From an uncultured Alphaproteobacteria bacterium (GTDB taxonomy: Bacteria; Pseudomonadota; Alphaproteobacteria; HIMB59; GCA-002718135), in the NCBI GenBank assembly GCA_902561355.1, contig CACEPG010000002.1:8607-72606 (forward strand): DNA of 64,000 nt, read 5' to 3'. The position numbers were made by a program, and so were the translations under genes. Below, in pieces: positions 41,539-64,000 of this stretch (the first letter of the stretch is position 1; each line of letters starts with the position of its first letter). Under the pieces are notes generated by a model. It was not told the DNA's origin. It saw nothing but the letters and a program-made list of their open reading frames with translations, and ran no database searches.

Positions 41539-41558
41539 AATAATATATATAATATTGA

Positions 41559-41574
41559 TTGAATAAGCATTCAA
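41559..41574 (+). promoter_or_regulatory. operator/promoter cassette TTGAAT-AAGC-ATTCAA (copy 3)
   Basis: A perfect 6-4-6 palindrome in the 55-bp Rieske/DAO divergent spacer. Its first T lies exactly 35 nt before the ATG at 41594. TATAAA follows after a 17-nt spacer. Confidence 0.55.
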
Positions 41575-46264: not shown

Positions 46265-46280
46265 TTGAATGTCTATTTAA
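46265..46280 (+). promoter_or_regulatory. degenerate copy of the TTGAAT-N4-ATTCAA cassette (TTGAAT-GTCT-ATTTAA, copy 4)
   Basis: It has one mismatch to the palindrome and lies in the 58-bp GS-like/amidase divergent spacer. Its first T is again exactly 35 nt before the ATG at 46300. The -10-like element is weak. Confidence 0.3.
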
Positions 46281-46299
46281 TTAAATTAAAGCAATATCT

Positions 46300-47843: not shown

Positions 47844-47859
47844 TTTATTGGGGGGTAAA

Positions 47860-48970: not shown

Positions 48971-49007
48971 AATAGCCTGTTCTCTTTTTGAGGGCGGGCT
49001 ATTTTTT
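48971..49007 (+). terminator. rho-independent terminator of the SBP gene
   Basis: The plus-strand RNA forms a 14-bp stem (48971-48984 with 48990-49003, three G-U pairs) and a 5-nt loop. The stem's last pair (A48971-T49003) begins the T-run 49003-49007. The structure contains the stop codon of the convergent ATPase gene. Confidence 0.75.
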
Positions 49008-50081: not shown

Positions 50082-50087
50082 AGTTTT

Positions 50088-50897: not shown

Positions 50898-50899
50898 TT

Positions 50900-51784
50900 T
50901 TAAGTTAACCTTTGTGTAAGTCTTTTTGTTACATTCGACACAATTATTGTTATGAGTATAACAGTTGTTAACATAATTGTAGCTGAAGCTGCGCCAAGAG
51001 GAATATTATTTATTTTTCCAAAGTAAGCCTGGATCATATTCGAAAGCATACGACCATCAGTTCCTCCAAGTAAGGCTGGAGTGACATAATCACCTACTGT
51101 AGGAATGAATATGATTAATATCGCTCCTATTACACCAGGTAAAGATAATGGAAATGTAATTTTCCAAAAAACTTCAAATCGAGAGAGTCCAAGATCTCTT
51201 CCTGCTTCAATAAACGAAAAGTCAATTTTTTCTAACGAAACATATAAAGGTAGTAATGCAAATGCTGCCCATGCGTGAGTAAGAGTAATAACTACTGCGG
51301 TTTCTGAATACATAAGAAATGTAAGAGGTTCGCTGAGAATTCCAGCGTTGATCAATGAAGAGTTTATAACTCCTTTTGTTCCAAGAATAATCTTCCAAGA
51401 AAATACTCTTAATAAATAAGATGTCCAAAAAGGCAAAGTGAGCAAAACAAGCCACAACATTTTGTTTTTTTTAACATAAAAAGCGATGTAATAACAAACT
51501 GGGTATGCTGTGATCAGTGTAATTAAAGTTACAAGAAATGATATTTTAATAGACTTTATGAGAAGTGTGACCAGCAAATTTTTTTGAAAGAAATCAATAT
51601 ATCTTTGAAAAGTAAAAGTATAGTCTATCTCCATCATGTTAACTTGAGTAAACATACTAAAGCTCAACATTAGTGCCATTGGTACGACCATAGCCAAAAT
51701 AATTAAAATTAAAGCTGGTGATAATAAAGTATAAGCTTTAACATTATCATTTTTAGCATAAATTTTTCTCCAAAAACCTATCAT
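50900..51784 (-). CDS. ABC-transporter permease, PotB-like
   Basis: Six transmembrane helices with the EAA loop IEAGRDLGLSRFEVFWKITFPLSLPG. Confidence 0.85.
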   Translation of the reverse strand: MIGFWRKIYAKNDNVKAYTLLSPALILIILAMVVPMALMLSFSMFTQVNMMEIDYTFTFQRYIDFFQKNLLVTLLIKSIKISFLVTLITLITAYPVCYYIAFYVKKNKMLWLVLLTLPFWTSYLLRVFSWKIILGTKGVINSSLINAGILSEPLTFLMYSETAVVITLTHAWAAFALLPLYVSLEKIDFSFIEAGRDLGLSRFEVFWKITFPLSLPGVIGAILIIFIPTVGDYVTPALLGGTDGRMLSNMIQAYFGKINNIPLGAASATIMLTTVILITIIVSNVTKRLTQRLT

Positions 51785-51804: not shown

Positions 51805-52983
51805 TTATTCAATTAAAGATTTCAAACCTCGTTTATAAAGAGAATTTGCAATAATAATTCTATGAATTTCACTTGTTCCTTCCCAAATACGGTCCACTCT
51901 TAATTCTCTATAATAACGCTCTGCAACATTCTCTCTCATATATCCTCTTCCACCAAAAATCTGCACTGCACGATCAGCAATTCTATTAGCCATTTCAGAT
52001 GCAAGTAATTTAATCATAGAACATTTTCCATGTAAAATTTTTACATCTTGTTTTGCATCATGAGCTTTGCAAACCTCATAAAGCATTAATCGAGTTGAAG
52101 CTAATTCATTTACACTATCTGCTAACATGAATTGTATAGCTTGATAGTTTGAAATTTTATCACCAAAAGATTCTCTTTCTTTTGCAAAAATTGTTGCTTC
52201 ATCAATTAATCTTTGAGCAGCCCCGCAGCATCTTGCAGCTATACCTAGTCTTTCATGCCTAAACCAGGAATGCGTATAATCCATGCCAATACCTTCATTA
52301 CCAATTATTTTTTTTTCTGAAATTGAAACATTATCAAACCTATAAATAGAATGATGATGTGCATATGTATGACTAAACTTAGGACTATCTATTAACTCAA
52401 TACCTTTCTCATCCTTATCAATTATAAATAGTGAATGCTTGCCCTCATTTGAACCAGATTTAATTTTTGCCTGTAAAAAGAAAAAATCAGCTAGATTTGC
52501 ACTTGTAACATACCATTTTTCGCCATTAATAATATATTGATCTCCCTTTTTTTCTGCTGTTGTTTCAATTGAGCCTTCCACATCTGAACCTGCGCCTTTT
52601 TCTGTAATCGCATAACATTCTTTTTTAGTACCGTTTAAAAGTGGTTTAAAATAATTTTCTTTTTGATAATCAGTAAAATTATTTTCCATCCAATCCTGAG
52701 CTTCTGAAAAACACCAGCATAATGCATTTGTAACTCGGCCTAATTGTTCCCAAACTATCATCTGTTCAAACATATTTAATCCCAAGCCTCCGCTTTCTTT
52801 TGAAATACCCATACCCGGCAAACCTAGTGAAATAGCAATCTCCCGATGTTTTTTTTCAATTTCCTTGGGTAACTCACCTTCATTTTTTTCTGCATGCACC
52901 TCCCAAGGAATTAATTCATCATTAACAAATTTTTTTATCTTTAATTGCCATTCCAAAGCTTTTGGTGTCATGCCGCTATACAT
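51805..52983 (-). CDS. acyl-CoA dehydrogenase family protein
   Basis: Has YAITEKGAGSDV and the C-terminal string YYRELRVDRIWEGTSEIHRIIIA. It is 392 aa and lies 2 nt downstream of the TetR gene. Confidence 0.85.
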   Translation of the reverse strand: MYSGMTPKALEWQLKIKKFVNDELIPWEVHAEKNEGELPKEIEKKHREIAISLGLPGMGISKESGGLGLNMFEQMIVWEQLGRVTNALCWCFSEAQDWMENNFTDYQKENYFKPLLNGTKKECYAITEKGAGSDVEGSIETTAEKKGDQYIINGEKWYVTSANLADFFFLQAKIKSGSNEGKHSLFIIDKDEKGIELIDSPKFSHTYAHHHSIYRFDNVSISEKKIIGNEGIGMDYTHSWFRHERLGIAARCCGAAQRLIDEATIFAKERESFGDKISNYQAIQFMLADSVNELASTRLMLYEVCKAHDAKQDVKILHGKCSMIKLLASEMANRIADRAVQIFGGRGYMRENVAERYYRELRVDRIWEGTSEIHRIIIANSLYKRGLKSLIE

Positions 52984-52985
52984 TG

Positions 52986-53624
52986 TTAAAACATTCCCTT
53001 AAATTGTTTGGGGAAATTAGATTTAATAAACTCAAAACATATTTTCTTTGCTTGTATCCTGTTAAAAGTATCAGGATCTTCAAGTTGATCCAACCATAAT
53101 CCCATAATCAAAGCTTGAAATCCTCTAGAAATATTTTTTTTAGATAATTTCACTTTTTCTTTTTTTATAAGTTCATCAAATATATTTTCAGTTAAAGATT
53201 GGTAATACATATCTCGTTCTTTACAAATTTGATGATAAGCAGGTTTATATTTAATTTCACTAAAAAAAGTAAACCACACTGAAATTTTTTCTCTAGTGCA
53301 AATTTTTTTACTAAAATCATTTTCTACAATTCCAATGATTTTTTTTCTTGGATCATTACCTTTTTTTGCAATACTTCTTTGAAATGAATCTAGATACTCG
53401 TTAGAAATATATTTTAATGTTTCTATTAATAAAAGTTCCTTACTTTTAAAATGAAAATTTACTATACCTTGGGAAAGACCTGCTCCCTGTGATACATCTT
53501 GCATAGTTAATTCATTTATTCCTTTTTTTGATAAATTTTTAATTGTTGAAGAAATTAATTTTAAATTACTATTTTTCTTATTTTCTGATCTAAGATTTCT
53601 TTGTTTCATATTTAATAAATTCAT
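52986..53624 (-). CDS. TetR-family transcriptional regulator (BetI-like ligand domain)
   Basis: The N-terminal HTH is ELTMQDVSQGAGLSQGIVNFHFKSKELLLIETL. The C-terminal strings ISVWFTFFSE...KP.Y and FQALIMGLWLDQL resemble E. coli BetI as I recall it (KAWLAFWASS...QP.LY, ALIDGLWLRAAL). Confidence 0.8.
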   Translation of the reverse strand: MNLLNMKQRNLRSENKKNSNLKLISSTIKNLSKKGINELTMQDVSQGAGLSQGIVNFHFKSKELLLIETLKYISNEYLDSFQRSIAKKGNDPRKKIIGIVENDFSKKICTREKISVWFTFFSEIKYKPAYHQICKERDMYYQSLTENIFDELIKKEKVKLSKKNISRGFQALIMGLWLDQLEDPDTFNRIQAKKICFEFIKSNFPKQFKGMF

Positions 53625-53665: not shown

Positions 53666-53681
53666 TTGAATGCTCATTCAA
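53666..53681 (+). promoter_or_regulatory. operator/promoter cassette TTGAAT-GCTC-ATTCAA (copy 1)
   Basis: A perfect 6-4-6 palindrome in the 76-bp TetR/flavoprotein-operon divergent spacer. Its first T lies exactly 35 nt before the ATG at 53701. Confidence 0.6.
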
Positions 53682-53700: not shown

Positions 53701-55329
53701 ATGAACAAAACTAAATATGATGTTGCTATAATTGGTGGTGGTCATAATGGATTAACCACAGCTTGTTATTTGGCTAAGGCGGGTCTCAAAGTCATTGTTG
53801 TGGAACGACATGAATATGTTGGAGGCGCAGCTGTTAGCAGAGAATTGCATCCAGGTTGGACTTATTCTAATTGCTCATATGTTTGCAGCTTATTAAGACC
53901 TGAGATATTTAGAGATTTAGAATTATCAAAACATGGGCTTCAAATTATACCTTATGAAGGTAGTGCGAGTATGCTTAATGATGGTAGATTTTATGCACAT
54001 TATCAAGATCATGATTTAACTTACAGATCTATCGCTCAATTTTCAAAAAAAGATGCTGAAGCCTATGATAGGTTTGGCAAAGATGTAATGAGGCAATGCA
54101 AAATTATCAAACCTCTTTTAAAAATGACTCCTCCTGACCCTACTTCTTTTAAACCAAAAGATATTATGGGTCTTTTTGAATTTGCAAAATACTTTGCAGC
54201 TAAAGATGAGCTTGGTGGTTTAGGTGAAAAAGAAATTTACGACACCATAAGATTTTGGACAATGAGCGTAAGAGATTATTTAGAAGAATATTTTGAATCA
54301 GATATAGTAAAAGTACATTTAGCTGGATCTGCAATAATAGGTACAGCGCTTGGGCCTTATTCCCCTGGTTCAGCTTATGTATTATTACATCATTACATGG
54401 GAGAAGTAGATGGGACTGTTGGAGCATGGGGGTATTCCAGAGGAGGAATGGGCTCGATTACAAAAGCTATGGCGTCATCTTTAAAATCAAACAATGGTGA
54501 AATAAAAGCAGGTTCACCAGTAAGTCAGATTCTTATCAAAAATAACAAAAGTTATGGACTTGTTCTTGAGAATGGTGATGAAATTTATGCAGATAAAATA
54601 GTTTCTAACCTTGATGTAAAAAGAACTTTTTTAAAAGTTGTAGAAGAAAAAGAATTACCTAGTGATTTTTATAAAGCTGTTAAAAATTTTAAAATTAGAG
54701 GCTCATCAGGAAAATTAAATATTGCTCTTGATGATCTTCCTATTTGGAAGAGTATTCCAGTTGGTGATCCTGCTGGCACTGGTGATCTGCATATAACGCA
54801 AAACATAGAAGAGATGGAAGGAGCTTACGATGATTGGAAGGATGGTAAGTGGTCACAATTTCCTTATGTTGATATGTGCATTCCAAGCATCAATGATCCA
54901 ACTATGGCACCACAAGGAAAACATTATATGTCTGTATTTATTCAATATGTACCCTACAATTTAGCTAATGGAGGTTGGACTGAGGAGAAACGTCTTGAAT
55001 TTGGTAAACATGTAATGAATAGAATTGGCAATTACTCCACAAACTTTAATGATATTATCAATCATGCAGAAATTAGAACTCCTAAAGAAATAGAAGCTGA
55101 GGTTGGTTTAACTGAAGGCAATATATTCCAAGGCGAACTAACCATGGACCAATTAATGTTTAATCGTCCAGTACCTGGTTATGCTCAATATAAGACACCG
55201 ATCAAAAATCTATATATGTGTGGATCAAGCACGCATCCTGGCGGAGGTGTTATGGGTGCACCTGGAGTTAATGCAGCAAGAGAAATATTAAAAGATTTAA
55301 AGATGAAAATATCAACACATTACATATGA
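53701..55329 (+). CDS. NAD(P)/FAD-dependent oxidoreductase, CrtI/amine-oxidase superfamily, PYROXD2-like
   Basis: Has YDVAIIGGGHNGLTTACYLAKAGLKVIVVERHEYVGGAA and CSYVCSLLRPEIFRDLELSKHGL, the latter close to the human PYROXD2 string as I recall it. The C-terminal string is LYMCGSSTHPGGGVMGAPG. Length is 542 aa. Confidence 0.8.
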   Translation: MNKTKYDVAIIGGGHNGLTTACYLAKAGLKVIVVERHEYVGGAAVSRELHPGWTYSNCSYVCSLLRPEIFRDLELSKHGLQIIPYEGSASMLNDGRFYAHYQDHDLTYRSIAQFSKKDAEAYDRFGKDVMRQCKIIKPLLKMTPPDPTSFKPKDIMGLFEFAKYFAAKDELGGLGEKEIYDTIRFWTMSVRDYLEEYFESDIVKVHLAGSAIIGTALGPYSPGSAYVLLHHYMGEVDGTVGAWGYSRGGMGSITKAMASSLKSNNGEIKAGSPVSQILIKNNKSYGLVLENGDEIYADKIVSNLDVKRTFLKVVEEKELPSDFYKAVKNFKIRGSSGKLNIALDDLPIWKSIPVGDPAGTGDLHITQNIEEMEGAYDDWKDGKWSQFPYVDMCIPSINDPTMAPQGKHYMSVFIQYVPYNLANGGWTEEKRLEFGKHVMNRIGNYSTNFNDIINHAEIRTPKEIEAEVGLTEGNIFQGELTMDQLMFNRPVPGYAQYKTPIKNLYMCGSSTHPGGGVMGAPGVNAAREILKDLKMKISTHYI

Positions 55330-56792
55330 AAAAATTTGATGTCATAATAATTGGTGGAGGTCACAATGGATTAGTTGCATCTTCATACTTATCAAAAAAA
55401 GGAAAAAAAGTTTTGGTAATTGAAAAAAACGAAAACGTTGGAGGATTAGCGGAATATGCAGAATCACTAAACTGTATCTCACCAATCATTAAAAAAGAAT
55501 TAGGGATTAATGTTAATAATATTAATCATTCAAATAATATTATATCACTAGAGGATAATCAAAATCATACTATTTTGTCAGATAAAAACGGCAAATTATC
55601 TTTTGTTCAAACCAATGCTGATGAAAATGATCAAAAGAAATTCTTGTCAATTATCAATAACTACAAATTGTTTTCAAAAACTCTTGGTGCATTTATGTTT
55701 CAAAAACCACCAAGAGTTAAATCAGGTAAAAGAGCTGACTTATTTCAATTAATTTCTATGGGATGGAAAATTAGAAAATTAGGTAAAAAAAATATGCGTG
55801 AACTATTAAGAGTAATTGGTTTAAATATCGCAGATGACTTAGAAGATAATTTAAATAGCAATAATCTAATGGGTCTATTATCCCATGAAGCTGTTTTGGG
55901 AACAAATCTAGGTCCAAGATCTCCAGGTTCAATATTAACTTTACTTTATAAACAAGCTATCAATGACAATATTTTTAATTTAAACAAAATAGAAGTTGCA
56001 GAATATATTAATCAATTAGAAGATTGCTGTAATAAAAATACTGTTGAAATCATTAAATCCTCTGAAGTTAAAAAAATATTAACTCAAAATAACTCTGTGA
56101 CTGGTGTTCAATTAACAAATGGCGAGGTTTTTGAATCAAAATATGTGATGTCTAATGCTGACCCTAAAACAACTTATTTAAATTTATTAGGTGCAGAAAT
56201 CCTAGATACTGATTTTATTAGAAGAACTAAAAATTTTAGAAATAAAGGAAATGTCGCTAAGCTTGAATTAGCGTTAGAAAATGAAATTAACATTAATAAT
56301 ATTGATAAAAAAATGAACGGAAAGTTTATTTATGCTCCTGGTATTAAGTACATAGAACATGCATTTAATGCTAATAAATATAACAAATATTCTGAAAATC
56401 CATGCCTTGAGTTTTACGTTAATCAAAAAACCTTATCAGCTAATGTTTATTATGTTCCGTATTTAATTAATACTAATCATAAAGAAAATGAAATAATTGA
56501 AAGATGTGTTTCAGTTTTAAGTAAATTTATTCCAGATATGAAAATAGTAAAACAAAAACTCATCACTCCCAATAAAATGGAAGAAAAGTTTAATATAACA
56601 GGAGGGCATTGGCATCACGGTGATTTAGAAATAGATCAATTATTAATGATGAGACCTTTTTATGGATCAGCTCAATATTCTACACCTATAAATGGTTTAT
56701 ATTTATGTGGTGCAGGAACCCATCCTGGAGGGGGAGTAACAGGTATCAACGGTCTTAATGCTGCAAAAAAAGTAATAGAGGATTTAAAATAA
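55326..56792 (+). CDS. second CrtI/PYROXD2-like FAD-dependent oxidoreductase (diverged paralogue)
   Basis: Has FDVIIIGGGHNGLVASSYLSKKGKKVLVIEKNENVGG and the C-terminal string LYLCGAGTHPGGGVTGINGLNAA. It has an ATGA overlap with the upstream paralogue. It is much more AT-, K- and N-rich than that paralogue. Confidence 0.75.
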   Translation: MKKFDVIIIGGGHNGLVASSYLSKKGKKVLVIEKNENVGGLAEYAESLNCISPIIKKELGINVNNINHSNNIISLEDNQNHTILSDKNGKLSFVQTNADENDQKKFLSIINNYKLFSKTLGAFMFQKPPRVKSGKRADLFQLISMGWKIRKLGKKNMRELLRVIGLNIADDLEDNLNSNNLMGLLSHEAVLGTNLGPRSPGSILTLLYKQAINDNIFNLNKIEVAEYINQLEDCCNKNTVEIIKSSEVKKILTQNNSVTGVQLTNGEVFESKYVMSNADPKTTYLNLLGAEILDTDFIRRTKNFRNKGNVAKLELALENEININNIDKKMNGKFIYAPGIKYIEHAFNANKYNKYSENPCLEFYVNQKTLSANVYYVPYLINTNHKENEIIERCVSVLSKFIPDMKIVKQKLITPNKMEEKFNITGGHWHHGDLEIDQLLMMRPFYGSAQYSTPINGLYLCGAGTHPGGGVTGINGLNAAKKVIEDLK

Positions 56793-57994
56793 TGAATACA
56801 TCAAAAATATCATACAAAAAACCTCTCTTAGAGACACCTTTTCACGAAAGAACATCTGAGCATTGTTATGCAAATGATTGGTATAGATGGGCTGGTTATA
56901 AAGTTGCTAAAGAGTACTCATCAACAGAACTTGAGTATACTTCAATGAGAAATACAGCTGGGGTAATTGATATTACTCCTATGCATAAATATGATATCAA
57001 AGGTGAGGATGCTAAAAAGTTTATTAATAAATTAATCACAAAAGATATTACTAATATTCAATCAAACCAAGTTGCCTATGGCATATGGTGCAATGAAGAT
57101 GGAATGGTAATTGATGATGGAACAATATTTTGCTTTAATGAAAATCATTTTAGAATTTTTTGTGCAGAACGAAATCTAAATTGGTTTTCTGACACAGCTA
57201 CGGGATTTAATGCAAGTGTTGAGGATATAAGTCCATCAATTGCCGCTTTAGCTTTTCAAGGGCCATTATCTTGTAAGATATTAAATTTATTAAAAGTAGA
57301 AAATATAGAAAACCTAAAACCATTTCATTTTAATAATTATAATATTGAAAATCATAATGTTACAATTTCCAGAACAGGTTTTTCTGGAGACTTAGGTTAT
57401 GAAATATGGTGTGACCCTTCTCAAGCCATTGATGTATGGGATAGTTTATTTAAATTTAATAGAGACTATAAAGTACTAGCAGCTGGAATGAATGCACTTG
57501 AGATGGTCAGAATTGAAGCTGGTTTTATCCAACCTAATGTAGATTTTATGTCTGCGGAACAAGCTTTAAGACCCAATAGAATGAGAAACCCCTATGAATT
57601 AGGTTTGGGCTGGTTAGTAAATCTAGATAAAGAGTATTTTACTGGAAAACAGGCATTAATTAGACACAAAGAAAAAGGTCCTGAAAAAAAACTCGTGGGA
57701 TTAGATATTGAAGGAGATAAACCTGCCGTTGGTTCTGTACTCTACGATAATAGTAAAAAAAATCAAGCCAAAGAAATTGGTATAGTGACAGCTGCAATGT
57801 GGTCCCCTGTCCTTAAATCTAATATTGCGATTGGATTTGTTAGCAAAGAACATTATAAATTAGGATCAAATGTTTATGCTGAAATTTATCATCCAGAAGA
57901 GCTGGATTACAGAAAAATTTGGGCTGAATGTAAAGTGGTTAAAAAGCAATTTTTTAACAATCCAAGAAGAAATGAAACACCTGCGTTTACATAA
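56792..57994 (+). CDS. stand-alone aminomethyltransferase (GcvT/DmdA-fold, folate-binding) family protein
   Basis: Has MRNTAGVIDITPMHKYDIKGEDA and ISRTGFSGDLGYEIW (compare GcvT ISRTGYTGEDGFEI). It is 400 aa and has a TAATG overlap with the upstream gene. Confidence 0.8.
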   Translation: MNTSKISYKKPLLETPFHERTSEHCYANDWYRWAGYKVAKEYSSTELEYTSMRNTAGVIDITPMHKYDIKGEDAKKFINKLITKDITNIQSNQVAYGIWCNEDGMVIDDGTIFCFNENHFRIFCAERNLNWFSDTATGFNASVEDISPSIAALAFQGPLSCKILNLLKVENIENLKPFHFNNYNIENHNVTISRTGFSGDLGYEIWCDPSQAIDVWDSLFKFNRDYKVLAAGMNALEMVRIEAGFIQPNVDFMSAEQALRPNRMRNPYELGLGWLVNLDKEYFTGKQALIRHKEKGPEKKLVGLDIEGDKPAVGSVLYDNSKKNQAKEIGIVTAAMWSPVLKSNIAIGFVSKEHYKLGSNVYAEIYHPEELDYRKIWAECKVVKKQFFNNPRRNETPAFT

Positions 57995-58000: not shown

Positions 58001-59152
58001 ATGGAATTTAATCTTTCAGAAGAACAGAATCTTTTAATTGATACTACTAAGTCATTTGTAAAAGCAGAATTGCTTCAACACGAAGAATTATTAGAAAAAA
58101 CAAATAATTTACCAAAAGAATTGTATGATGAAATTAAGCAAAAAAGTATTAAAGCAGGTTTGTATGCTTGCAATATGCCCACTGAACATGGTGGTGGTGG
58201 TTTAAATGCTTTTGATTTAACTTTAGTTGAAAAACATCTCGGTTTTGCATCACTTGCTTTAGCGGAAGTTGCTTGGCGACCACAAAATATCTTAATGGCC
58301 TGTGAAGGTAAATTAATTGATGAATACTTAAAACCAGCTATCACAGGTGAGAGAAAAGATTGCATAGCAATGACAGAACCAGGAGCTGGTTCAGATTTAC
58401 GGGGGATGAAAACAAAAGCAGTTAAGGATGGTAATGATTGGGTGATTAATGGAACAAAACATTTTATATCTAATGCACACATATCTGACTTTGTAGTACT
58501 TTTTGCCTCAACAGGTGAAGATGAAAAAGGTAGAAATTTACTTTCGTGTTTCTTAGTTGATTTAAAACAAAAAGGAGTTGAGGTTGCAAAAGGTTATGAC
58601 TGTGTTTCTCACAGAGGATACGTTAATAATATTTTAAACTTTAATGATTGCAGAATTCCTGCAAGAAATATTCTTGGTGAAAAAGATAAAGGCTTTGAGC
58701 TAATGAATGTTTGGTTAGAAGCAACTCGTTTAACTGTTGCGGCAACTTCTGTATCTAGAGCCGAAAGAGCTTTTGATATAGCCTTGGATTGGTCTGCAAA
58801 TAGAAAACAATTTGGAAAAGTCATTGGAAAATTTCAGGGTGTTTCATTTAAATTAGCTGATATGGCTACAGAAATTAAACTAGCAAACTTGATATTAATG
58901 GAGTCTGCTTGGAAAATTGATCAAAAAACATTAACATCTCAAGATGCGGCTATGACAAAATTATTTTGTACTGAAATGTTAAGTAGAGTCTCTGATGAAG
59001 CTATTCAAATCCTTGGTGGAATGGGATTGATGTCAGATATTCCACTTGAAAGAATATGGCGAGATGCAAGAATAGAAAGAATTTGGGAAGGCACCAGTGA
59101 AATTCAACGTCATATTATTTCACGTTCACTTCTAAGACCCCTTGGAGCATAA
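58001..59152 (+). CDS. acyl-CoA dehydrogenase family protein (CaiA/DmdC-position)
   Basis: The N-terminus is MEFNLSEEQ. It also has AMTEPGAGSDL and the C-terminal string RDARIERIWEGTSEIQRHIISR. Length is 383 aa. Confidence 0.85.
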   Translation: MEFNLSEEQNLLIDTTKSFVKAELLQHEELLEKTNNLPKELYDEIKQKSIKAGLYACNMPTEHGGGGLNAFDLTLVEKHLGFASLALAEVAWRPQNILMACEGKLIDEYLKPAITGERKDCIAMTEPGAGSDLRGMKTKAVKDGNDWVINGTKHFISNAHISDFVVLFASTGEDEKGRNLLSCFLVDLKQKGVEVAKGYDCVSHRGYVNNILNFNDCRIPARNILGEKDKGFELMNVWLEATRLTVAATSVSRAERAFDIALDWSANRKQFGKVIGKFQGVSFKLADMATEIKLANLILMESAWKIDQKTLTSQDAAMTKLFCTEMLSRVSDEAIQILGGMGLMSDIPLERIWRDARIERIWEGTSEIQRHIISRSLLRPLGA

Positions 59153-59155
59153 TCT

Positions 59156-61192
59156 TTGAATTTAAAAAAACTTTTTAGACCAAAAAGTCTTGCTTTAGTT
59201 GGAGGGTATTGGGCAGACTTTGTTTATGATGGCAATAAAACTATTGGCTATCAAGGTAAAGTTTGGCATATAAATCCTTCACGTAAAAGCTCCAAAGCAA
59301 AAAAATATTATAAAAATATTAAAGATCTTCCAGAAGTACCTGATTGCGTTTATCTAGCTGTCTCAAGGGATCAAACAGTAAAATTAATAAAAGATATTGC
59401 TGACATAGGTGTTGGAGGTACTGTTTGTTTAGCTTCGAGATTTTCTGAACTTAATTCTAAAGAAGGTACAAATAAAACTAATGAGCTAATTAGGAATGCT
59501 GGCAAAATGCCTTTCCTTGGACCAAATTGTTATGGATTTATAAATTACTTGGATAGAATTTCAGTATGGTCTGATCAAGTAGCAGGCAAACCAACTAAAA
59601 AAGGTGTTGCTATTATATGTCAAAGTGGAACTATTGGTAATACGATTAGTTTTAATAATAGATCTTTACCAATTGGGTATATAATTTCTCTCGGCAATCA
59701 ATCACAAATAACGATAGAAGATGCCATTAATTATGCTTTAGATGATAAGAGAGTTACTGCTATTGGAATTTATGCTGAAAGTTTTACCAATACAGAAAAG
59801 TTAATAAAAGTATTTAAAAAATCCAGATTAAAAAAAATTCCTATAGCATTAGTTAAAGTAGGCAGATCTAAAACTGCGTCTAAAACAATATTAACACATA
59901 CTGGATCACTAAGCGGGAAAGAAGATATATATGATTCTTTATTTCAAAGAATGGGTGTGGCTAGATGTAATACATTAGGAGAGTTATGTGAAATTTTAAA
60001 ATTACTTCACACTCATGGTGCTTTAAATAACGATAAAATTTCAATTATGGGTCCATCAGGTGGTGATATGGCTATGATAGGAGACGTTGCAGAAACTTTA
60101 TCATTAAATTTTGGTAAAATACCTACAAAAATAAAAAATGAATTAAAAAAAGTTAATCACCCAAGTGTTATAATTTCAAATCCATTCGATCTACAAACAT
60201 ACAACTGGAATGACCCTAAGCAATTAGCAAAAACATTTAAATTAATATTTAAAACTAATTTTGGTTTAAATGCACTTATGCTAGATTTTCCAAATATAGA
60301 AGATTGTGACACTGCAGAATGGGATGCTATAGTAGATCAATTTATAAAATCATCAAAAATAAAAAAAAATGGAGCGATTATTTCTTCACTTTCAGATACC
60401 CTTCCTAAATATCTAAGAGAAAAATGTCTTAAGTCAGGAGTTGTTCCACTTCAGGGTATGTCAGAGAGTTTACTAGCCATAAGTAACTCAATAAAAATTT
60501 CAAAAGCTTGGAGTAATTTTAGTGAAATTAAAATTTCAAAAAAATTACAAAATCATAAAAAGAAAATTAAAACATTTTCAGAATATGAATCAAAATTAAT
60601 CCTAAAAAAATTTAAAATATCTACACCAAAATCTTTAATTACAAATAAAAAAAATATTTTGCGAGATTATAAAAAAATTGGATTTCCTTTAGTGGCAAAA
60701 ATACATTCAACTAAATTTTTTCATAAAACTGAAATTGGAGGTGTTATTATTAACATTAATAATGAAAAAGAATTAAAGCAAAAGACAAATAAATTTAGAG
60801 GCAATATCTTAATTGAAAAAATGATATCAAATTCGATTTTTGAAATGATAATAGGCATAAAAAATGATAGCCAATTTGGACCTACAATAATATTGGGGGC
60901 TGGTGGTATTTATACCGAATTATTTAAAGATACGACTACCTTACTTTTACCTTTAAATAAAAAAATAATTTTGGATGAAATAAAAAAACTTAAATTTAGC
61001 AAAATATTATTTGGTTTTAGAGGAAGTAATATTGCTGATATTGATGCATTAGTAAATACAATATTAAAAGTAGCTGTTTTTGCTGAAAAAAATTCAGATA
61101 AAATTTCAGAAGTTGATATAAATCCACTAATAGTTTGTAAAAAAGGTAAAGGTGTATTTGCTGTAGATGCTCTAATACATTATTTAATATAG
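59156..61192 (+). CDS. NDP-forming acyl-CoA synthetase (CoA-binding, succinyl-CoA-ligase-like and ATP-grasp domains fused)
   Basis: The N-terminus LFRPKSLALVGG marks the CoA-binding fold. It also has ICQSGTIG and HTGSLSG (phosphohistidine-loop type) and a C-terminal ATP-grasp string (PLVAKIHS...HKTEIGGV). It is 678 aa and uses a TTG start. Confidence 0.8.
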   Translation: MNLKKLFRPKSLALVGGYWADFVYDGNKTIGYQGKVWHINPSRKSSKAKKYYKNIKDLPEVPDCVYLAVSRDQTVKLIKDIADIGVGGTVCLASRFSELNSKEGTNKTNELIRNAGKMPFLGPNCYGFINYLDRISVWSDQVAGKPTKKGVAIICQSGTIGNTISFNNRSLPIGYIISLGNQSQITIEDAINYALDDKRVTAIGIYAESFTNTEKLIKVFKKSRLKKIPIALVKVGRSKTASKTILTHTGSLSGKEDIYDSLFQRMGVARCNTLGELCEILKLLHTHGALNNDKISIMGPSGGDMAMIGDVAETLSLNFGKIPTKIKNELKKVNHPSVIISNPFDLQTYNWNDPKQLAKTFKLIFKTNFGLNALMLDFPNIEDCDTAEWDAIVDQFIKSSKIKKNGAIISSLSDTLPKYLREKCLKSGVVPLQGMSESLLAISNSIKISKAWSNFSEIKISKKLQNHKKKIKTFSEYESKLILKKFKISTPKSLITNKKNILRDYKKIGFPLVAKIHSTKFFHKTEIGGVIININNEKELKQKTNKFRGNILIEKMISNSIFEMIIGIKNDSQFGPTIILGAGGIYTELFKDTTTLLLPLNKKIILDEIKKLKFSKILFGFRGSNIADIDALVNTILKVAVFAEKNSDKISEVDINPLIVCKKGKGVFAVDALIHYLI

Positions 61193-61200
61193 TTTAATTT

Positions 61201-61977
61201 ATGGACAAACCAGTTAAAACAAAAATTGAAGGATCAATATTAGAGATAACTATTGATCGACCAAAAGCTAATGCGATAGATGCTAAGACAAGTATAATGT
61301 TGGGAAATATATTTGCTGACTTTAGAGATAATCCAAAACTTAAAGTAGCTATCATTACAGGTGGCGGAGAAAAATTTTTTTCTGCCGGATGGGATCTAAA
61401 GGCTGTTAATGAAGGAGAGGCTGCTGATGCAGATTATGGTGTTGGTGGATTTGGAGGACTGCAAGAGTTACCTAATATGAACAAACCTATTATAGCAGCT
61501 GTTAATGGTATTGCGTGCGGTGGTGGTTTTGAAATTATGATTTCAGCAGATATTATAATTGCCGCAGAACACGCAACATTTGCGTTACCTGAAATCAATG
61601 TAGGAGTTGTAGCTGACGCAGCTACAATAAAATTAAGAAGACGTATACCCTATCACGTAGCTGTTGAGTTTTTAATGACTGGAAGATGGATGGATGTCAA
61701 AGAAGCAAAACACTGGGGTTTAGTAAATGAAATTGTTAAAACAAATGATTTATTAAAAAGAGCCTGGGAAATAGCTGATAAAATTTCAAAAGGACCTAAT
61801 TTAATTTATTCTTCAATTAAAGAAGTTTTAAGAGAAACAGAAAACGAAAAGGAAATACCATCATTTAAAATTTTGCGATCATTAGAATCAGTAAAAAAAG
61901 TTTATGGAAGTGAAGATCTAAAAGAAGGAGCTTCTTCTTTTGTTAAAAAAACAGATCCGAATTGGAAAGATAAATAG
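61201..61977 (+). CDS. crotonase-family hydratase, closely CaiD-like (carnitinyl-CoA dehydratase / crotonobetainyl-CoA hydratase type)
   Basis: [21 protein letters not shown] and [39 protein letters not shown] are almost colinear with E. coli CaiD as I recall it ([60 protein letters not shown]). An alignment is needed to confirm this. Confidence 0.8.
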   Translation: [258 protein letters not shown]

Positions 61978-61995: not shown

Positions 61996-62017
61996 TTGAA
62001 TGCTCATTCAGTGAATG
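61996..62017 (+). promoter_or_regulatory. operator/promoter cassette TTGAAT-GCTC-ATTCAG overlapping a second palindrome CATTCA-G-TGAATG (copy 2)
   Basis: The 15-nt core TTGAATGCTCATTCA is identical to copy 1. It lies in the 53-bp spacer between the CaiD-like gene and the aminotransferase. Its first T is exactly 35 nt before the ATG at 62031, and TACAGT follows after a 17-nt spacer. Confidence 0.6.
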
Positions 62018-62030: not shown

Positions 62031-63407
62031 ATGAAAAATGATTATGTTAGTGAAATCCATAAGAAAGATAAACTTGTTCTCCATCCATATGAAGATATGG
62101 AAAGTAGAGGAACTTATGACCGTAAACTTATTGTAAAATCAGATAATATTTATCTTTATGATGAAAATGGAAAAGAATACATTGATGGACCTGGAGGTAT
62201 GTGGTGTAATAACATAGGGCACGGAAATAAAGAGATAGGTGAGGCTGTTAAAAATCAACTAGAAAAAATGGAATATTGCAGCCCTTTTTCAGAATCTAGT
62301 GAAATTTCTGCTGAATTAGCTTCTGTTCTATCTGAATTGTCTCCTGGAGATCTTAATACAGTTTTTTTTACTACTGATGGCTCTACAGCCAATGATACTG
62401 CTCTAAGATTTATTATGTTTTATAATAACATATTAGGCAGACCTAATAAAAAACACTTTATCACTAGGCATAAAGCTTATCATGGAAGCACTTATCTTAC
62501 AGGATCAATAACAGGCAAAGATAGGGAAAAAAATAATTTTGATTTTGAAAAAAATTTCATTCATCATTTGAGTTCACCTCTTGCTTATAGAAGAAAAAAA
62601 AACCAAACAATTCAAGAATTTTGTGATGAACTTGTAAAAGAATTTGAAGATAAAATAATAGAATTAGGATCAGAAAATGTTGCAGCTTTTATTGCTGAAC
62701 CAGTCATGGCTTCAGGTGGTTGTATAGTCCCTCCTGAAGGATATTTAAAAAGAATTTGGCAAATATGCAAAAAATATGATGTTTTATATATTTCTGATGA
62801 AGTAGTTACAGGGTTTGGAAGAATGGGTCATTTTTTTTCTTCTGAAGAAGTTTTTGAAATAGTTCCTGATATTATAACTTGTGCTAAGGGAATTACATCA
62901 GGATATATGCCTCTTGGAGCTGTCTTATTTTCTGACAAATTACTAAATGATATTAAAAAAGAATCTGCACTTTTTTTTCACGGCTATACTTATTCAGGAC
63001 ATCCTGCATGTTGTGCTGCAGCATTAAAAAACATAGAAATTATTGAACGAGATAAAATTCTTGAACATGTTCAAGAAATTGAACCCTACTTTCATAATAA
63101 ATTACAAAAATTGTATGAATTACCAATTGTTGGAGATGTAAGAGGTAAAGGATTAATGGCAGGCATAGAATGTGTAATAAATAAAGATAGTAAGGAAGCA
63201 CTTATTTTAGATAAAGCTATAGGATCAAGAATTGATGAGGAATCAATTAAATTAGGCTTAATTATTAGACCGCTCTATCATATTTGTGTTTTATCTCCTG
63301 CTTTAATAATTACAAAATCACAAATTGATGATCTTGTTGAAAAATTATTTACTGCTATTCAAAATTCTCTTCAACAACTTAAAACAGAAGGTTTATGGAA
63401 AGATTAA
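62031..63407 (+). CDS. class-III (omega-amino acid / diamine : pyruvate or 2-oxoglutarate) aminotransferase
   Basis: Has GGMWCNNIGHG, ISDEVVTGFGRMG and the PLP-Lys context ITCAKGITSGY. Length is 458 aa. Confidence 0.85.
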   Translation: MKNDYVSEIHKKDKLVLHPYEDMESRGTYDRKLIVKSDNIYLYDENGKEYIDGPGGMWCNNIGHGNKEIGEAVKNQLEKMEYCSPFSESSEISAELASVLSELSPGDLNTVFFTTDGSTANDTALRFIMFYNNILGRPNKKHFITRHKAYHGSTYLTGSITGKDREKNNFDFEKNFIHHLSSPLAYRRKKNQTIQEFCDELVKEFEDKIIELGSENVAAFIAEPVMASGGCIVPPEGYLKRIWQICKKYDVLYISDEVVTGFGRMGHFFSSEEVFEIVPDIITCAKGITSGYMPLGAVLFSDKLLNDIKKESALFFHGYTYSGHPACCAAALKNIEIIERDKILEHVQEIEPYFHNKLQKLYELPIVGDVRGKGLMAGIECVINKDSKEALILDKAIGSRIDEESIKLGLIIRPLYHICVLSPALIITKSQIDDLVEKLFTAIQNSLQQLKTEGLWKD

Positions 63408-63416: not shown

Positions 63417-64000
63417 ATGTTTTCTGCAATTAAAAATTATGCAGATTTTAGCACTGTAAATTCTAGTATTAAATATTTATCAATTGTTGCTTTTTTTACT
63501 GGCGTTGTTTTAGGATATTTTTTTACAATTATAGTAATTTTACAAAAATATGCAGGTTATTCAGAATTTACAATAGGAATTGTAGCTTCTTGTTTCTCTT
63601 TTGGATTAATGTCAGCCGGTTTTATAGTCACAAAAGTACTTAATAAAATTGGTTTATTTTTGACACTTATTTTTGCAGTATCTTTACAAACTGTATGTAT
63701 AATTTCTATGTTTGCTTATTTTAATCCAATTAATTTAGCAACTTGTCATTTTGTTATGGGTCTTATGGGGGGGATGAATTGGATGACAATGGATGCTTGG
63801 GCTAACATAGTTTCAAGTGATAAAAATAGAGGGAAAGCTATAGGCTTATATAATTCTTCTATTTCTATAGGATTTGGAGTTGGTCCATTAATTGTTGCAT
63901 TATACGGAAGCTCTGGAAATTTACCTGTAATAATTTGCTTAATCCTAATGTCTTTAAGAATTTTAACTATCATATTTATTAAAAAACATATTCATGAAGT
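63417..64000 (+). CDS. MFS-type transporter, N-terminal part (runs off the 3' edge; not in the ORF track)
   Basis: My hand translation from the ATG at 63417 gives a stop-free frame to the window end. It contains at least five hydrophobic helices and an MFS loop-like string, SSDKNRGKAIG. Confidence 0.6.
   Translation, partial: MFSAIKNYADFSTVNSSIKYLSIVAFFTGVVLGYFFTIIVILQKYAGYSEFTIGIVASCFSFGLMSAGFIVTKVLNKIGLFLTLIFAVSLQTVCIISMFAYFNPINLATCHFVMGLMGGMNWMTMDAWANIVSSDKNRGKAIGLYNSSISIGFGVGPLIVALYGSSGNLPVIICLILMSLRILTIIFIKKHIHE

What the first reader, a model, noticed from the sequence alone, without database searches (positions are those of the whole stretch)
58001..61977. Activate-desaturate-hydrate module (ACAD, NDP-forming acyl-CoA synthetase, near-CaiD hydratase) built on an unusual activating enzyme
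The hydratase is almost colinear with E. coli CaiD in its N-terminal 100 residues, as far as I recall that sequence. CaiD acts on trimethylammonio-acyl-CoA esters.

The upstream dehydrogenase occupies the CaiA / butyrobetainyl-CoA dehydrogenase position. Together with the GcvT-like gene, the order GcvT-ACAD-synthetase-hydratase also mirrors the DMSP demethylation logic (DmdA, DmdC, DmdB, DmdD).

Activation here would not use the AMP-forming ligases or CoA-transferases of the Cai and Dmd systems. It would use a fused 678-aa ADP/NDP-forming synthetase, which conserves ATP. That could matter for an oligotroph.
Basis: partly seen in the sequence, partly recalled or inferred. Interest (0 to 1): 0.6.

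Follow-up and report, generated by a model that had tools for sequence, protein, structure and literature searches.

The report
Butyrobetaine-to-carnitine CoA module (bcoC-bcoA/B-bcoD)
The three genes are real and are the marine counterpart of the rhizobial bcoC-bcoA/B-bcoD genes, which turn gamma-butyrobetaine into L-carnitine through CoA esters, so the odd ADP-forming activating enzyme is already known; what is new is the uncharacterised flavoprotein/folate gene trio they are inserted next to.

Summary
Window 58001-61977 encodes, with gaps of 3-8 bp, an acyl-CoA dehydrogenase, a fused 678-aa NDP-forming acyl-CoA synthetase and a CaiD-like enoyl-CoA hydratase (49% identical to E. coli CaiD over its full length).

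The trio matches, gene for gene and in the same order, the rhizobial bcoC-bcoA/B-bcoD genes (56-58%, 34-35% and 58-60% identity). Those lie beside carnitine dehydrogenase and BKACE, and their synthetase makes gamma-butyrobetainyl-CoA from ATP and CoA. The "unusual activating enzyme" is therefore already known, and it is found across many Proteobacteria, so it is not an oligotroph adaptation.

In close relatives a thioesterase, BKACE and carnitine dehydrogenase follow, just beyond the window's right end.

The DMSP (Dmd) analogy fails. The GcvT-like gene belongs to a separate, translationally coupled unit, FADox1-FADox2-GcvT, normally followed directly by the aminotransferase. The bco trio is a present-or-absent insertion between them.

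A BetI-type repressor and a conserved palindrome (TTGAATG-NN-CATTCAA) link the island together, including a GbcA-like Rieske oxygenase and a DAO oxidase.

Verdict: new member of a known kind. The flavoprotein/GcvT unit is the real open question.

The parts
58001..59152 (+). BcoC-type acyl-CoA dehydrogenase (gamma-butyrobetainyl-CoA to crotonobetainyl-CoA, inferred)
   Evidence: Pfam ACAD N/M/C domains. 56% identical to the R. etli ACAD that follows carnitine 3-dehydrogenase and 58% to the S. meliloti one; only 29% to E. coli CaiA. The catalytic Glu lies in IWE363GTSE, read from the sequence.
59156..61192 (+). BcoA/B-type fused NDP-forming acyl-CoA synthetase (gamma-butyrobetaine + ATP + CoA to gamma-butyrobetainyl-CoA, inferred)
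   Evidence: CoA_binding_2 + Succ_CoA_lig + ATP-grasp_5. 34% identity over 679 aligned residues to the R. etli gene between the ACAD and caiD (435 bits). The best solved relatives are [ADP-forming] 3-hydroxypropionate- and 4-hydroxybutyrate-CoA ligases; DddX is third. LTH248TGSLSG and FH523KTEIGG are invariant in alignment A1 and align with SHTGSLGG and LHKTDVGG of 9y43.
61201..61977 (+). BcoD/CaiD-type crotonobetainyl-CoA hydratase
   Evidence: 49% identical to E. coli CaiD, 58% to R. etli and 60% to S. meliloti caiD. It scores 297 bits on the CaiD model NF002936, much like S. meliloti BcoD (310) and R. etli (319), all below the 500-bit cut-off. Both crotonase glutamates are present (GGGFE111, PE131).
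53701..55329 (+). FADox1: CrtI/amine-oxidase-family flavoprotein, first gene of the operon, function uncharacterised
   Evidence: Pfam Amino_oxidase/DAO/NAD_binding_8. The best NCBIfam hit is CrtO at 284 bits against a 1000-bit cut-off; the best PDB hit is CrtI at 67 bits. It is 62-66% identical to soil, peat and freshwater homologues.
55326..56792 (+). FADox2: paralogous flavoprotein that overlaps FADox1 by 4 bp
   Evidence: It is always found next to FADox1.
56792..57994 (+). GcvT-like folate-binding aminomethyltransferase whose start overlaps the FADox2 stop by 1 bp; not DmdA
   Evidence: Pfam GCV_T + GCV_T_C. NCBIfam scores are 251 bits for the TMAO-demethylase domain, 228 for GcvT and 166 for DmdA (cut-off 410). 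In the PDB ranking DmdA (3tfh) is sixth.
62031..63407 (+). Class-III (omega-type) aminotransferase, ancestrally the gene right after GcvT
   Evidence: NF005447 scores 668 bits against a 618-bit cut-off. PDB relatives are omega-, putrescine and GABA transaminases. Orthologues at 55-78% identity follow GcvT directly in L089, L091, L092 and L098.
63417..64000 (+). N-terminal part of an MFS transporter, cut by the end of the window. In relatives GNAT, an HD-domain protein, a thioesterase, BKACE and carnitine dehydrogenase follow.
   Evidence: tblastn gives 54% identity to residues 4-195 of the L004 MFS. Gene order in relatives comes; family assignments.
52986..53624 (-). BetI-type TetR repressor, transcribed divergently from FADox1
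   Evidence: TetR_N + TetR_C_6 (BetI-type). The BetI models score 106 and 101 bits, below their cut-offs.
53666..53681 (.). Candidate operator TTGAATGCTCATTCAA, about 20 nt upstream of the FADox1 ATG
   Evidence: A perfect 7-2-7 palindrome. An exact copy lies upstream of FADox1 in 14 related loci. At up to 1 mismatch there are 3 sites in the window against 0.13 expected.
61996..62011 (.). Second operator copy (TTGAATGCTCATTCAG) in the 53-bp gap between the hydratase and the aminotransferase
   Evidence: It is conserved in L009 and lies at the same distance from the ATG as the other copies.
51805..52983 (-). Second acyl-CoA dehydrogenase (ACAD2), in an operon with the repressor and the ABC transporter
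   Evidence: 34% identical to the BcoC-type ACAD and 32% to R. etli BcoC. It is conserved beside the repressor and FADox unit at 54-92% identity in other loci.
48999..51784 (-). PotA/PotC/PotB-type ABC transporter (ATPase and two permeases)
   Evidence: NCBIfam. A transporter of this type accompanies the FADox unit in marine and soil loci.
47848..48948 (+). PotD/F-type (SBP_bac_8) substrate-binding protein; ligand unknown
   Evidence: SAR11_1336 'PotD' binds glycine betaine and DMSP rather than polyamines (PMC11485210), so the 'polyamine' label is unsafe.
40306..41574 (-). GbcA-like Rieske oxygenase (candidate betaine N-demethylase). The listed TTG start overlaps the operator, so the true start is probably further in.
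   Evidence: NF058607 GbcA scores 334 bits against a 670-bit cut-off. It is 49% identical to the Rieske gene inside the L089 FADox operon.
41559..41574 (.). Operator-like palindrome (TTGAATAAGCATTCAA) between the Rieske and DAO genes
41594..42928 (+). DAO-family amine oxidase (sarcosine/pipecolate-oxidase-like)
   Evidence: It is 47% identical to the DAO of the L089 FADox operon.

Best explanation
Window 58001-61977 is an orthologue of the bcoC-bcoA/B-bcoD module, the CoA-dependent route from gamma-butyrobetaine (GBB) to L-carnitine.

Inferred steps of the module:
1. The 678-aa NDP-forming synthetase activates GBB with ATP and CoA through a phosphohistidine (His248). By family inference this releases ADP + Pi.
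2. The BcoC-type flavoprotein desaturates GBB-CoA to crotonobetainyl-CoA.
3. The CaiD-type hydratase adds water to give L-carnitinyl-CoA.

Shown in close relatives, and expected just beyond window position 64000:
4. A 4HBT-type thioesterase frees carnitine.
5. Carnitine 3-dehydrogenase oxidises it.
6. A BKACE enzyme cleaves 3-dehydrocarnitine with acetyl-CoA into acetoacetate and betainyl-CoA, which gives glycine betaine.

The trio is a mobile insertion into an older operon, FADox1-FADox2-GcvT-aminotransferase. That operon is controlled by a BetI-type TetR repressor acting on the palindrome TTGAATG-NN-CATTCAA.

My working model is that the GbcA-like Rieske oxygenase, the FADox1/FADox2/GcvT unit and the DAO oxidase strip the three N-methyl groups from the resulting betaine, and that GcvT passes formaldehyde units to tetrahydrofolate. 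This last part is inference from gene neighbourhood only.
For: Identity and order:
- ACAD 56%, synthetase 34% and hydratase 58% to the three consecutive R. etli p42c genes that follow BKACE and carnitine 3-dehydrogenase.
- The same cluster is present in S. meliloti at 58%, 35% and 60%.

Biochemical anchor:
- S. meliloti BcoAB with ATP, CoA and GBB yields GBB-CoA (methods of bioRxiv 10.1101/2021.01.25.428109, citing Bazire 2019).
- The HK4/Rhizobium GBB-to-carnitine route is described as analogous to fatty-acid degradation (PMC2131755).

Breadth:
- In the 80 genome loci fetched with the synthetase, it is almost always flanked by a 52-61% BcoC-type ACAD and a 42-72% CaiD-type hydratase. Most loci also have BKACE and carnitine dehydrogenase within 10 kb.

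Downstream genes:
- Relatives L004, L005 and L008-L012 continue with aminotransferase, MFS, GNAT, an HD protein, thioesterase, BKACE and carnitine dehydrogenase.
- On NCBIfam the dehydrogenase scores 348 bits as L-carnitine dehydrogenase, and the thioesterase matches the C-terminal domain of the fused carnitine dehydrogenase model.
- The window ends inside the MFS gene.

Catalytic residues:
- The His248 and His523 loops are conserved.
- Hydratase Glu111 and Glu131 and ACAD Glu363 are present (sequence).

The hydratase has the same score profile as S. meliloti BcoD.

Insertion:
- L098 has GcvT followed by the aminotransferase after 14 bp, with no bco genes, yet BKACE and carnitine dehydrogenase lie downstream.
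- L089, L091 and L092 also have GcvT directly followed by the aminotransferase.

Regulon.
Against: - No enzyme of this lineage has been assayed.
- The synthetase, which sets substrate choice, is only 34-35% identical to the rhizobial enzyme and evolves fast (66% between relatives whose ACADs are 90% identical).
- The thioesterase, BKACE and carnitine dehydrogenase genes are not in the window itself. They are seen only in relatives.
- I could not read Bazire 2019, so ADP rather than AMP formation by BcoA/B rests on family membership (the PDB names of 9y43 and 8wzu, and the conserved histidines).
- The hydratase does not reach NCBI's CaiD cut-off (297 of 500 bits), although the rhizobial BcoD proteins do not either.
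- The demethylation model leaves three genes without a clear role: the aminotransferase, ACAD2 and the aguA/aguB-like genes.
Confidence: 0.78

Rival explanations
1. The trio has the same chemistry but a different substrate. It would activate, desaturate and hydrate another omega-ammonio acid, for example 4-dimethylaminobutyrate or N-methyl-GABA made by the neighbouring demethylases, delta-valerobetaine, or imported crotonobetaine. The aminotransferase would then finish a GABA-type branch.
For: - The synthetase is only 34-35% identical to BcoA/B.
- The trio sits inside an operon with a putative N-demethylase and an omega-transaminase whose solved relatives include GABA and putrescine transaminases.
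- A second, non-orthologous NDP-forming synthetase and hydratase pair (24-26% identity) accompanies the same FADox unit and ACAD2 in L088, L147 and L159. This family has therefore diversified on related substrates.
Against: - 56-60% identity of the ACAD and the hydratase to the rhizobial proteins, with conserved order.
- Carnitine dehydrogenase and BKACE lie downstream in every close relative that has the trio and enough sequence to show them. This points to carnitinyl-CoA as the product.
Confidence: 0.14
2. A DMSP-type module. GcvT would act as a DmdA-like demethylase followed by DmdC/DmdB/DmdD-like steps, or the synthetase would act like DddX, the ATP-dependent DMSP lyase of the same superfamily.
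For: - DddX (PDB 7cm9, 'DMSP lyase') is a full-length relative of the synthetase (180 bits, residues 9-673).
- PotD-type binding proteins of SAR11 bind DMSP.
Against: - GcvT is closer to true T-proteins and the TMAO-demethylase domain than to DmdA. The DmdA model scores 166 bits against a 410-bit cut-off, and DmdA ranks sixth in the PDB search.
- The hydratase's best matches are CaiD and BcoD, and no DmdD appears among its PDB hits at E <= 1e-30.
- BcoA/B similarity (435 bits) far exceeds DddX similarity.
- GcvT is coupled to two flavoproteins, not to the ACAD.
- The trio is absent from L098 while GcvT remains.
Confidence: 0.03
3. Generic short-chain fatty-acid activation and beta-oxidation, with acetate, propionate or butyrate as substrates and the CaiD resemblance being incidental.
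For: - Databases name the synthetase 'acetate--CoA ligase family protein'.
- The closest solved structures to the ACAD are short-chain acyl-CoA dehydrogenases.
Against: - The CaiD model beats every generic hydratase model by more than 90 bits.
- Synteny with carnitine dehydrogenase and BKACE recurs across many lineages.
- The regulator is of the BetI type.
Confidence: 0.04

Closest known systems
Rhizobial bco genes: bcoC, bcoA/B and bcoD of Sinorhizobium meliloti and strain HK4 (Bazire et al. 2019, J Bacteriol 201:e00772-18; Lonza L-carnitine process)
   Same: - Same three protein families in the same order and tightly packed.
- 56-60% identity for the ACAD and hydratase, and 34-35% full-length identity for the NDP-forming synthetase.
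- Linked to BKACE, carnitine dehydrogenase and a thioesterase.
   Different: - In the marine lineage the trio is inserted into a FADox1-FADox2-GcvT-aminotransferase operon under a BetI-type TetR. Rhizobia use a GlxA-type regulator.
- Carnitine dehydrogenase (311 aa) and the thioesterase (153 aa) are separate genes here, not one protein of about 495 aa.
- The synthetase is strongly diverged.
E. coli caiTABCDE carnitine operon
   Same: The hydratase is 49% identical to CaiD. Both systems handle crotonobetainyl-CoA and carnitinyl-CoA.
   Different: - Cai works anaerobically, in the reductive direction, with CaiA as a reductase.
- Cai activates substrates with the CaiB CoA-transferase and the AMP-forming CaiC ligase; the window has neither.
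- The ACAD is only 29% identical to CaiA.
ADP-forming acyl-CoA synthetases with solved structures: 3-hydroxypropionate- and 4-hydroxybutyrate-CoA ligases (9y43, 8wzu), archaeal ACD (4xyl), and DddX (7cm9)
   Same: The domain set and both histidine loops are shared. DddX also acts on a zwitterionic onium acid (DMSP).
   Different: Similarity is low (180-254 bits), the substrates differ and the gene contexts differ. In 9y43 the beta part precedes the alpha part.
Folate-linked N-demethylases: heterotetrameric sarcosine oxidase, dimethylglycine dehydrogenase/oxidase and TMAO demethylase
   Same: A flavoprotein is paired with a GcvT-fold folate-binding part. This is the logic I propose for FADox1/FADox2/GcvT.
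   Different: In those enzymes the flavin subunits are DAO-type, and the GcvT part is a fused domain. Here the flavoproteins are CrtI/amine-oxidase-type and the three proteins are separate. No member of this unit has been characterised.

Membership tests
Bco module (bcoC-bcoA/B-bcoD, CoA-dependent gamma-butyrobetaine to L-carnitine route) | Three adjacent genes in the order ACAD, NDP-forming acyl-CoA synthetase, CaiD-type hydratase | tested here: met
   The same order is seen in S. meliloti, R. etli and most of 80 genome loci.
Bco module (bcoC-bcoA/B-bcoD, CoA-dependent gamma-butyrobetaine to L-carnitine route) | Sequence orthology of each protein to the rhizobial genes | tested here: met
   56-58%, 34-35% and 58-60% identity, all full length. 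The second ACAD in the window (ACAD2) is only 32% identical to BcoC, so the match is specific.
Bco module (bcoC-bcoA/B-bcoD, CoA-dependent gamma-butyrobetaine to L-carnitine route) | Genomic linkage to carnitine dehydrogenase, BKACE and a betainyl/carnitinyl-CoA thioesterase | tested here: inconclusive
   Met in relatives L004, L005, L008 and L010-L012, about 5 kb downstream; in L009 BKACE was found but no carnitine dehydrogenase. The window stops at 64000 inside the MFS gene, so this cannot be seen in the window itself.
Bco module (bcoC-bcoA/B-bcoD, CoA-dependent gamma-butyrobetaine to L-carnitine route) | Gamma-butyrobetaine-dependent CoA ester formation and conversion to L-carnitinyl-CoA | not testable with these tools
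   This needs enzyme assays.
NDP(ADP)-forming acyl-CoA synthetase superfamily | CoA-binding, succinyl-CoA-ligase-like and ATP-grasp domains | tested here: met
   PF13380, PF13607 and PF13549 all score above their gathering cut-offs.
NDP(ADP)-forming acyl-CoA synthetase superfamily | Phosphohistidine loop (HTGS) and the second conserved His of the ATP-grasp part | tested here: met
   H248 and H523 are invariant in A1 and aligned to 9y43. Their catalytic role comes from my knowledge of archaeal ACD enzymes.
NDP(ADP)-forming acyl-CoA synthetase superfamily | ADP + Pi as products, not AMP + PPi | not testable with these tools
   Inferred from family membership only.
CaiD (NCBIfam NF002936, crotonobetainyl-CoA hydratase equivalog) | Score at or above the curated cut-off of 500 bits | tested here: not met
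   297 bits. S. meliloti BcoD (310) and R. etli (319) also fall short. The window protein belongs with the Bco subgroup, not the enterobacterial CaiD equivalog.
CaiD (NCBIfam NF002936, crotonobetainyl-CoA hydratase equivalog) | Both crotonase catalytic glutamates present | tested here: met
   GGGFE111 and PE131 align with the E. coli CaiD residues.
CaiA (crotonobetainyl-CoA reductase) | Specific similarity beyond generic ACAD level | tested here: not met
   29% identity. The CaiA model scores 185 bits against a 540-bit cut-off and ranks eighth.
DMSP demethylation pathway (DmdA, DmdB, DmdC, DmdD) | DmdA-type GcvT paralogue | tested here: not met
   The DmdA model scores 166 bits against a 410-bit cut-off. 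Pelagibacter DmdA (3tfh) scores 101 bits, below T-proteins and TMAO demethylase.
DMSP demethylation pathway (DmdA, DmdB, DmdC, DmdD) | AMP-forming DmdB ligase and DmdD-type hydratase | tested here: not met
   The synthetase is NDP-forming. The hydratase's best matches are CaiD and BcoD, with no DmdD among its PDB hits at E <= 1e-30.

The most novel reading that the evidence does not exclude
The translationally coupled FADox1-FADox2-GcvT unit (53701-57994) would be a previously uncharacterised heteromeric, tetrahydrofolate-linked amine N-demethylase built from CrtI/amine-oxidase-type flavoproteins.

Together with a GbcA-like Rieske oxygenase, a DAO oxidase and an omega-transaminase, it would complete the breakdown of gamma-butyrobetaine, carnitine and related betaines, feeding their methyl groups into C1 oxidation. 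This would happen in very abundant AT-rich marine alphaproteobacteria and, independently, in soil Gammaproteobacteria.

The bco trio would be a plug-in that widens the substrate range of this unit.
Probability: 0.4. Interest if true: 0.6.

Novelty: new member of a known kind. Interest (0 to 1): 0.33.

Why it matters
For the finding as stated, the value is corrective.
- Genes routinely labelled "acetate--CoA ligase family", "acyl-CoA dehydrogenase" and "enoyl-CoA hydratase" in marine genomes can be read as a gamma-butyrobetaine-to-carnitine module.
- This adds the CoA-dependent route to the oxygenase (BBOX) route recently reported in Arctic SAR11 islands (PMC12421898).
- It supports quaternary amines as carbon, nitrogen and methyl-group sources for streamlined marine bacteria.

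The larger prize lies next door.
- The FADox1-FADox2-GcvT unit is abundant. The protein search returned 8000 hits at E <= 1e-30, which is its scoring cap, with clusters of several hundred members.
- It is highly conserved from the ocean to peat and soil, and it repeatedly neighbours carnitine and betaine genes.
- It has no characterised member. Assigning its reaction would fill a gap in marine methylated-amine and C1 budgets.

Tried and rejected
- **Bazire et al. 2019.** I tried to read it by DOI and by PMC id. It is not held, so I relied on papers that cite or use it and on a 2007 review.
- **Literature searches that found nothing.** No paper came up on the FADox/GcvT/aminotransferase unit, on bco gene names beyond Rajakovich 2021, or in the SAR11 polyamine paper.
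- **CaiA orthology.** Rejected: 29% identity.
- **DmdA, DmdD or DddX roles.** Rejected on score ranking and synteny.
- **A polyamine pathway as the core function**, suggested by the Pot-type transporter, aguA/aguB, GS-like genes and GNAT. Not adopted. A SAR11 PotD-annotated binding protein binds betaines, and the regulator, operator and neighbours are betaine- and carnitine-themed. It remains possible for the 41.6-47.8 kb part of the island.
- **RNA elements.** The Rfam and tRNA scans found only a tRNA-Leu.
- **Promoter and terminator scan.** It was no better than shuffled sequence.
- **Low G+C at 1-10 kb.** I checked whether it marks an island. It holds ordinary housekeeping genes.
- **Unused tools.** I did not use structure prediction or fold search, because a CrtI-like fold would not reveal the substrate.

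Full report
**What is there**

The window is very AT-rich (about 19-35% G+C). The synthetase's nearest relatives are marine metagenome contigs (up to 99% identity). Among genomes, the nearest are single-cell genomes AG-447-P01 and AG-447-I04 (85-87%). MarineAlpha5 bins are more distant (64-66%), and one paper groups these with HIMB59 (PMC8879329).

At the stated coordinates there are three tightly packed, co-directional ORFs:
- 58001-59152: an acyl-CoA dehydrogenase (ACAD).
- 59156-61192: a 678-aa protein with CoA_binding_2, Succ_CoA_lig and ATP-grasp_5 domains, which is a fused NDP-forming acyl-CoA synthetase.
- 61201-61977: a crotonase-family hydratase.

The hydratase is 49% identical to E. 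coli K-12 CaiD over its full length. The CaiD model is its best NCBIfam match by more than 90 bits.

**What it is**

A tblastn search of the synthetase against plasmid and chromid records hit hundreds of rhizobial replicons at 33-35% identity over 99% of the length. In S. meliloti and in R. etli p42c the matched gene lies in this cluster: GlxA regulator | BKACE, carnitine 3-dehydrogenase, ACAD, "acetate--CoA ligase family" protein, caiD.

Pairwise comparisons show that all three window proteins match those genes:
- ACAD 56% (454 bits)
- synthetase 34% over 679 residues (435 bits)
- hydratase 58% (297 bits)

By contrast, the ACAD is only 29% identical to CaiA. The window's second ACAD (ACAD2) is only 32% identical to the rhizobial one.

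This rhizobial cluster is the bco system. Rajakovich et al. used S. meliloti BcoAB with ATP, CoA and Mg to synthesise gamma-butyrobetainyl-CoA, citing Bazire et al. 2019. A 2007 review describes the gamma-butyrobetaine-to-carnitine route of the Rhizobium-like strain HK4 as analogous to fatty-acid degradation. I could not obtain Bazire 2019 itself.

**How general it is**

A scan of one genome per species, using a synthetase alignment, found 594 relatives. I examined the 80 loci that were returned. A tblastn map shows the following:
- The synthetase is nearly always next to a 52-61% BcoC-type ACAD and a 42-72% CaiD-type hydratase.
- Most loci also have BKACE and carnitine dehydrogenase within 10 kb.
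- The hosts include Rhizobiaceae, Phyllobacterium, Kiloniella, Halopseudomonas, Steroidobacteraceae, Arenicellales and a Thioglobus MAG.

The NDP-forming activating enzyme is therefore the standard one for this pathway in copiotrophs and oligotrophs alike. It is not an oligotroph speciality.

S. meliloti and R. etli BcoD score 310 and 319 bits on the CaiD model (cut-off 500). The window hydratase scores 297, with the same ranking of runner-up models. It thus belongs to a Bco subgroup for which no curated model exists.

**Mechanistic residues**

- The synthetase keeps the LTH248TGSLSG loop and FH523KTEIGG. Both are invariant across marine and rhizobial members and align with the corresponding motifs of an ADP-forming 3-hydroxypropionate-CoA ligase structure.
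- The hydratase has both crotonase glutamates (E111, E131).
- The ACAD has the usual catalytic glutamate (E363).
- ADP + Pi formation is inferred from family membership, not shown.

**What lies around it**

The genes upstream are transcribed in the same direction and are coupled:
- FADox1 (53701-55329) and FADox2 (55326-56792) overlap by 4 bp.
- FADox2 and the GcvT-like gene (56792-57994) overlap by 1 bp.
- The ACAD starts 6 bp later.

In relatives at 64-87% synthetase identity the operon continues past the aminotransferase (62031-63407). The order is MFS, GNAT, an HD-domain protein, a 4HBT thioesterase on the opposite strand, BKACE and a 311-aa dehydrogenase. The dehydrogenase scores 348 bits as L-carnitine dehydrogenase. 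The thioesterase matches the C-terminal domain of the fused carnitine dehydrogenase model.

The window ends within the MFS gene (63417-64000). The carnitine-cleaving genes are therefore expected just off its right edge.

**The GcvT gene is not part of a Dmd-like series**

Its similarity is highest to true T-proteins and the TMAO-demethylase folate domain. DmdA ranks sixth.

Contigs found through FADox1 show a recurrent core: a BetI-type TetR divergent from FADox1-FADox2-GcvT-aminotransferase, plus a Pot-type ABC transporter and usually ACAD2.
- L089, L091 and L092 have the aminotransferase orthologue (55-58%) directly after GcvT and no bco genes.
- L098 is a close marine relative (FADox1 89%). 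It has GcvT followed by the aminotransferase after 14 bp, no bco trio and no repressor, yet BKACE and carnitine dehydrogenase lie downstream.
- L090 has three unrelated genes between GcvT and the ACAD.

The bco trio is therefore a present-or-absent cassette inserted between GcvT and the aminotransferase. The "GcvT-ACAD-synthetase-hydratase" order is a junction of two modules.

**The two modules are nevertheless functionally linked**

In soil, peat and freshwater contigs, FADox1 is still 62-66% identical. There the FADox1-FADox2-GcvT unit again lies beside carnitine dehydrogenase, BcoC, BcoD, BcoA/B and BKACE. A GbcA-like Rieske oxygenase, an aldehyde dehydrogenase, a class-III aminotransferase, BetI-type regulators and a Pot-type transporter are also present (L120, L170, L166 and others, and L034).

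In the window, a perfect palindrome TTGAATGCTCATTCAA lies about 20 nt before the FADox1 start codon. Near-copies lie at the same distance from a start codon in three other places:
- upstream of the aminotransferase (61996; 1 mismatch)
- between a GbcA-like Rieske gene and a DAO oxidase gene (41559; 1 mismatch)
- between a GS-like gene and an amidase gene (46265; 2 mismatches)

At up to 1 mismatch there are 3 sites against 0.13 expected. The exact palindrome is found upstream of FADox1 in 14 related loci, and the aminotransferase copy recurs in L009.

The Rieske protein (40306-41574; GbcA model 334 of 670 bits) is 49% identical to its counterpart inside the L089 FADox operon. The DAO protein (41594-42928) is 47% identical to its counterpart there.

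I read this as one BetI-type regulon covering roughly 40.3 kb to beyond 64 kb.

**Proposed pathway**

1. Gamma-butyrobetaine is taken up. The Pot-type transporter is a candidate, because SAR11's PotD-annotated protein binds glycine betaine and DMSP rather than polyamines (PMC11485210).
2. It is activated, desaturated and hydrated to L-carnitinyl-CoA. This step is well supported.
3. The product is hydrolysed, oxidised and cleaved to acetoacetate and glycine betaine. This is supported by relatives.
4. The betaine is demethylated in turn by the Rieske oxygenase, the FADox/GcvT unit and the DAO oxidase, with methylene-THF as the C1 product. This is inference only.

An alternative for step 4 is stepwise demethylation of butyrobetaine itself to GABA, followed by transamination. 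I cannot tell these apart. The roles of the aminotransferase, ACAD2, GNAT, the HD-domain protein and the aguA/aguB-like genes remain open.

**Verdict**

Interest in the finding as stated is modest. The adjoining uncharacterised FADox1-FADox2-GcvT unit, with its conserved linkage to carnitine genes, is the part worth experimental follow-up.

Noticed in passing
window 53666-53681, 61996-62011, 41559-41574, 46265-46280: A palindrome TTGAATG-NN-CATTCAA occurs four times, each about 20 nt upstream of a start codon (FADox1, aminotransferase, DAO, amidase). It is probably the operator set of the BetI-type TetR at 52986-53624. The exact copy is conserved in 14 related loci.
   Followed up: partly
window 53701-57994; loci L088-L172: FADox1-FADox2-GcvT is a translationally coupled unit with no characterised homologue. 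It is very abundant in marine metagenomes. It is 62-66% identical in soil, peat and freshwater contigs, where it again neighbours carnitine and betaine genes.
   Followed up: partly
window 40306-41574 (-): A GbcA-like Rieske oxygenase (334 bits, cut-off 670) is transcribed divergently from the DAO gene. Its mechanically listed TTG start overlaps the operator-like palindrome, so the real start is probably downstream. No GbcB-type reductase partner was seen nearby.
   Followed up: partly
window 37571-47775: This stretch holds paralogue pairs and amine-related genes: two DAO-type oxidases (37571-38893, 41594-42928), two glutamine-synthetase-like genes (38945-40309, 44856-46241), aguA-like and aguB genes (42934-44866) and an amidase (46300-47775). 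It looks like an amine-catabolic island next to housekeeping genes. The substrates are unknown.
   Followed up: no
L088 14378-17313; also L147, L159: A second, non-orthologous NDP-forming synthetase and hydratase pair (24-26% identical to the window's) follows GcvT in some contigs that also carry ACAD2. This suggests a paralogous activate-desaturate-hydrate set for another substrate.
   Followed up: no
L004 15877-16446; L120 1432-2100; other loci: A protein of about 190 aa has weak similarity (36-39 bits) to the PhnZ/TmpB HD-domain oxygenases. It co-occurs with carnitine clusters in both marine alphaproteobacterial and soil contigs at 47-55% identity. Its role is unknown.
   Followed up: no
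L098 (metagenome contig Ga0208521_1000667): This close relative lacks both the TetR repressor and the bco trio and has no palindrome, but it keeps FADox1-FADox2-GcvT-aminotransferase, BKACE and carnitine dehydrogenase. It is a natural variant that should use carnitine but not butyrobetaine by this route.
   Followed up: partly
L006 6223-7221 (-): In a MarineAlpha5 relative, a homocysteine S-methyltransferase (BHMT-like) gene sits between the GNAT and HD-domain genes of the cluster. This fits glycine betaine being the product to be demethylated.
   Followed up: no
L002 (CP090106.1): This 3.72-Mb S. meliloti record, labelled 'plasmid pSymB', looks like a mislabelled chromosome. The bcoA/B gene is missing from its gene table, and the tblastn match is split into two pieces, so a frameshift or annotation gap is possible.
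   Followed up: no
window 23542-23626 (-); window 1-10000: The only RNA gene found is a tRNA-Leu(TAA). The first 10 kb drop to 19-24% G+C but encode ordinary genes (alanine racemase, an MMPL transporter, the Der GTPase, FtsJ, and HlyD/AcrB efflux proteins).
   Followed up: yes
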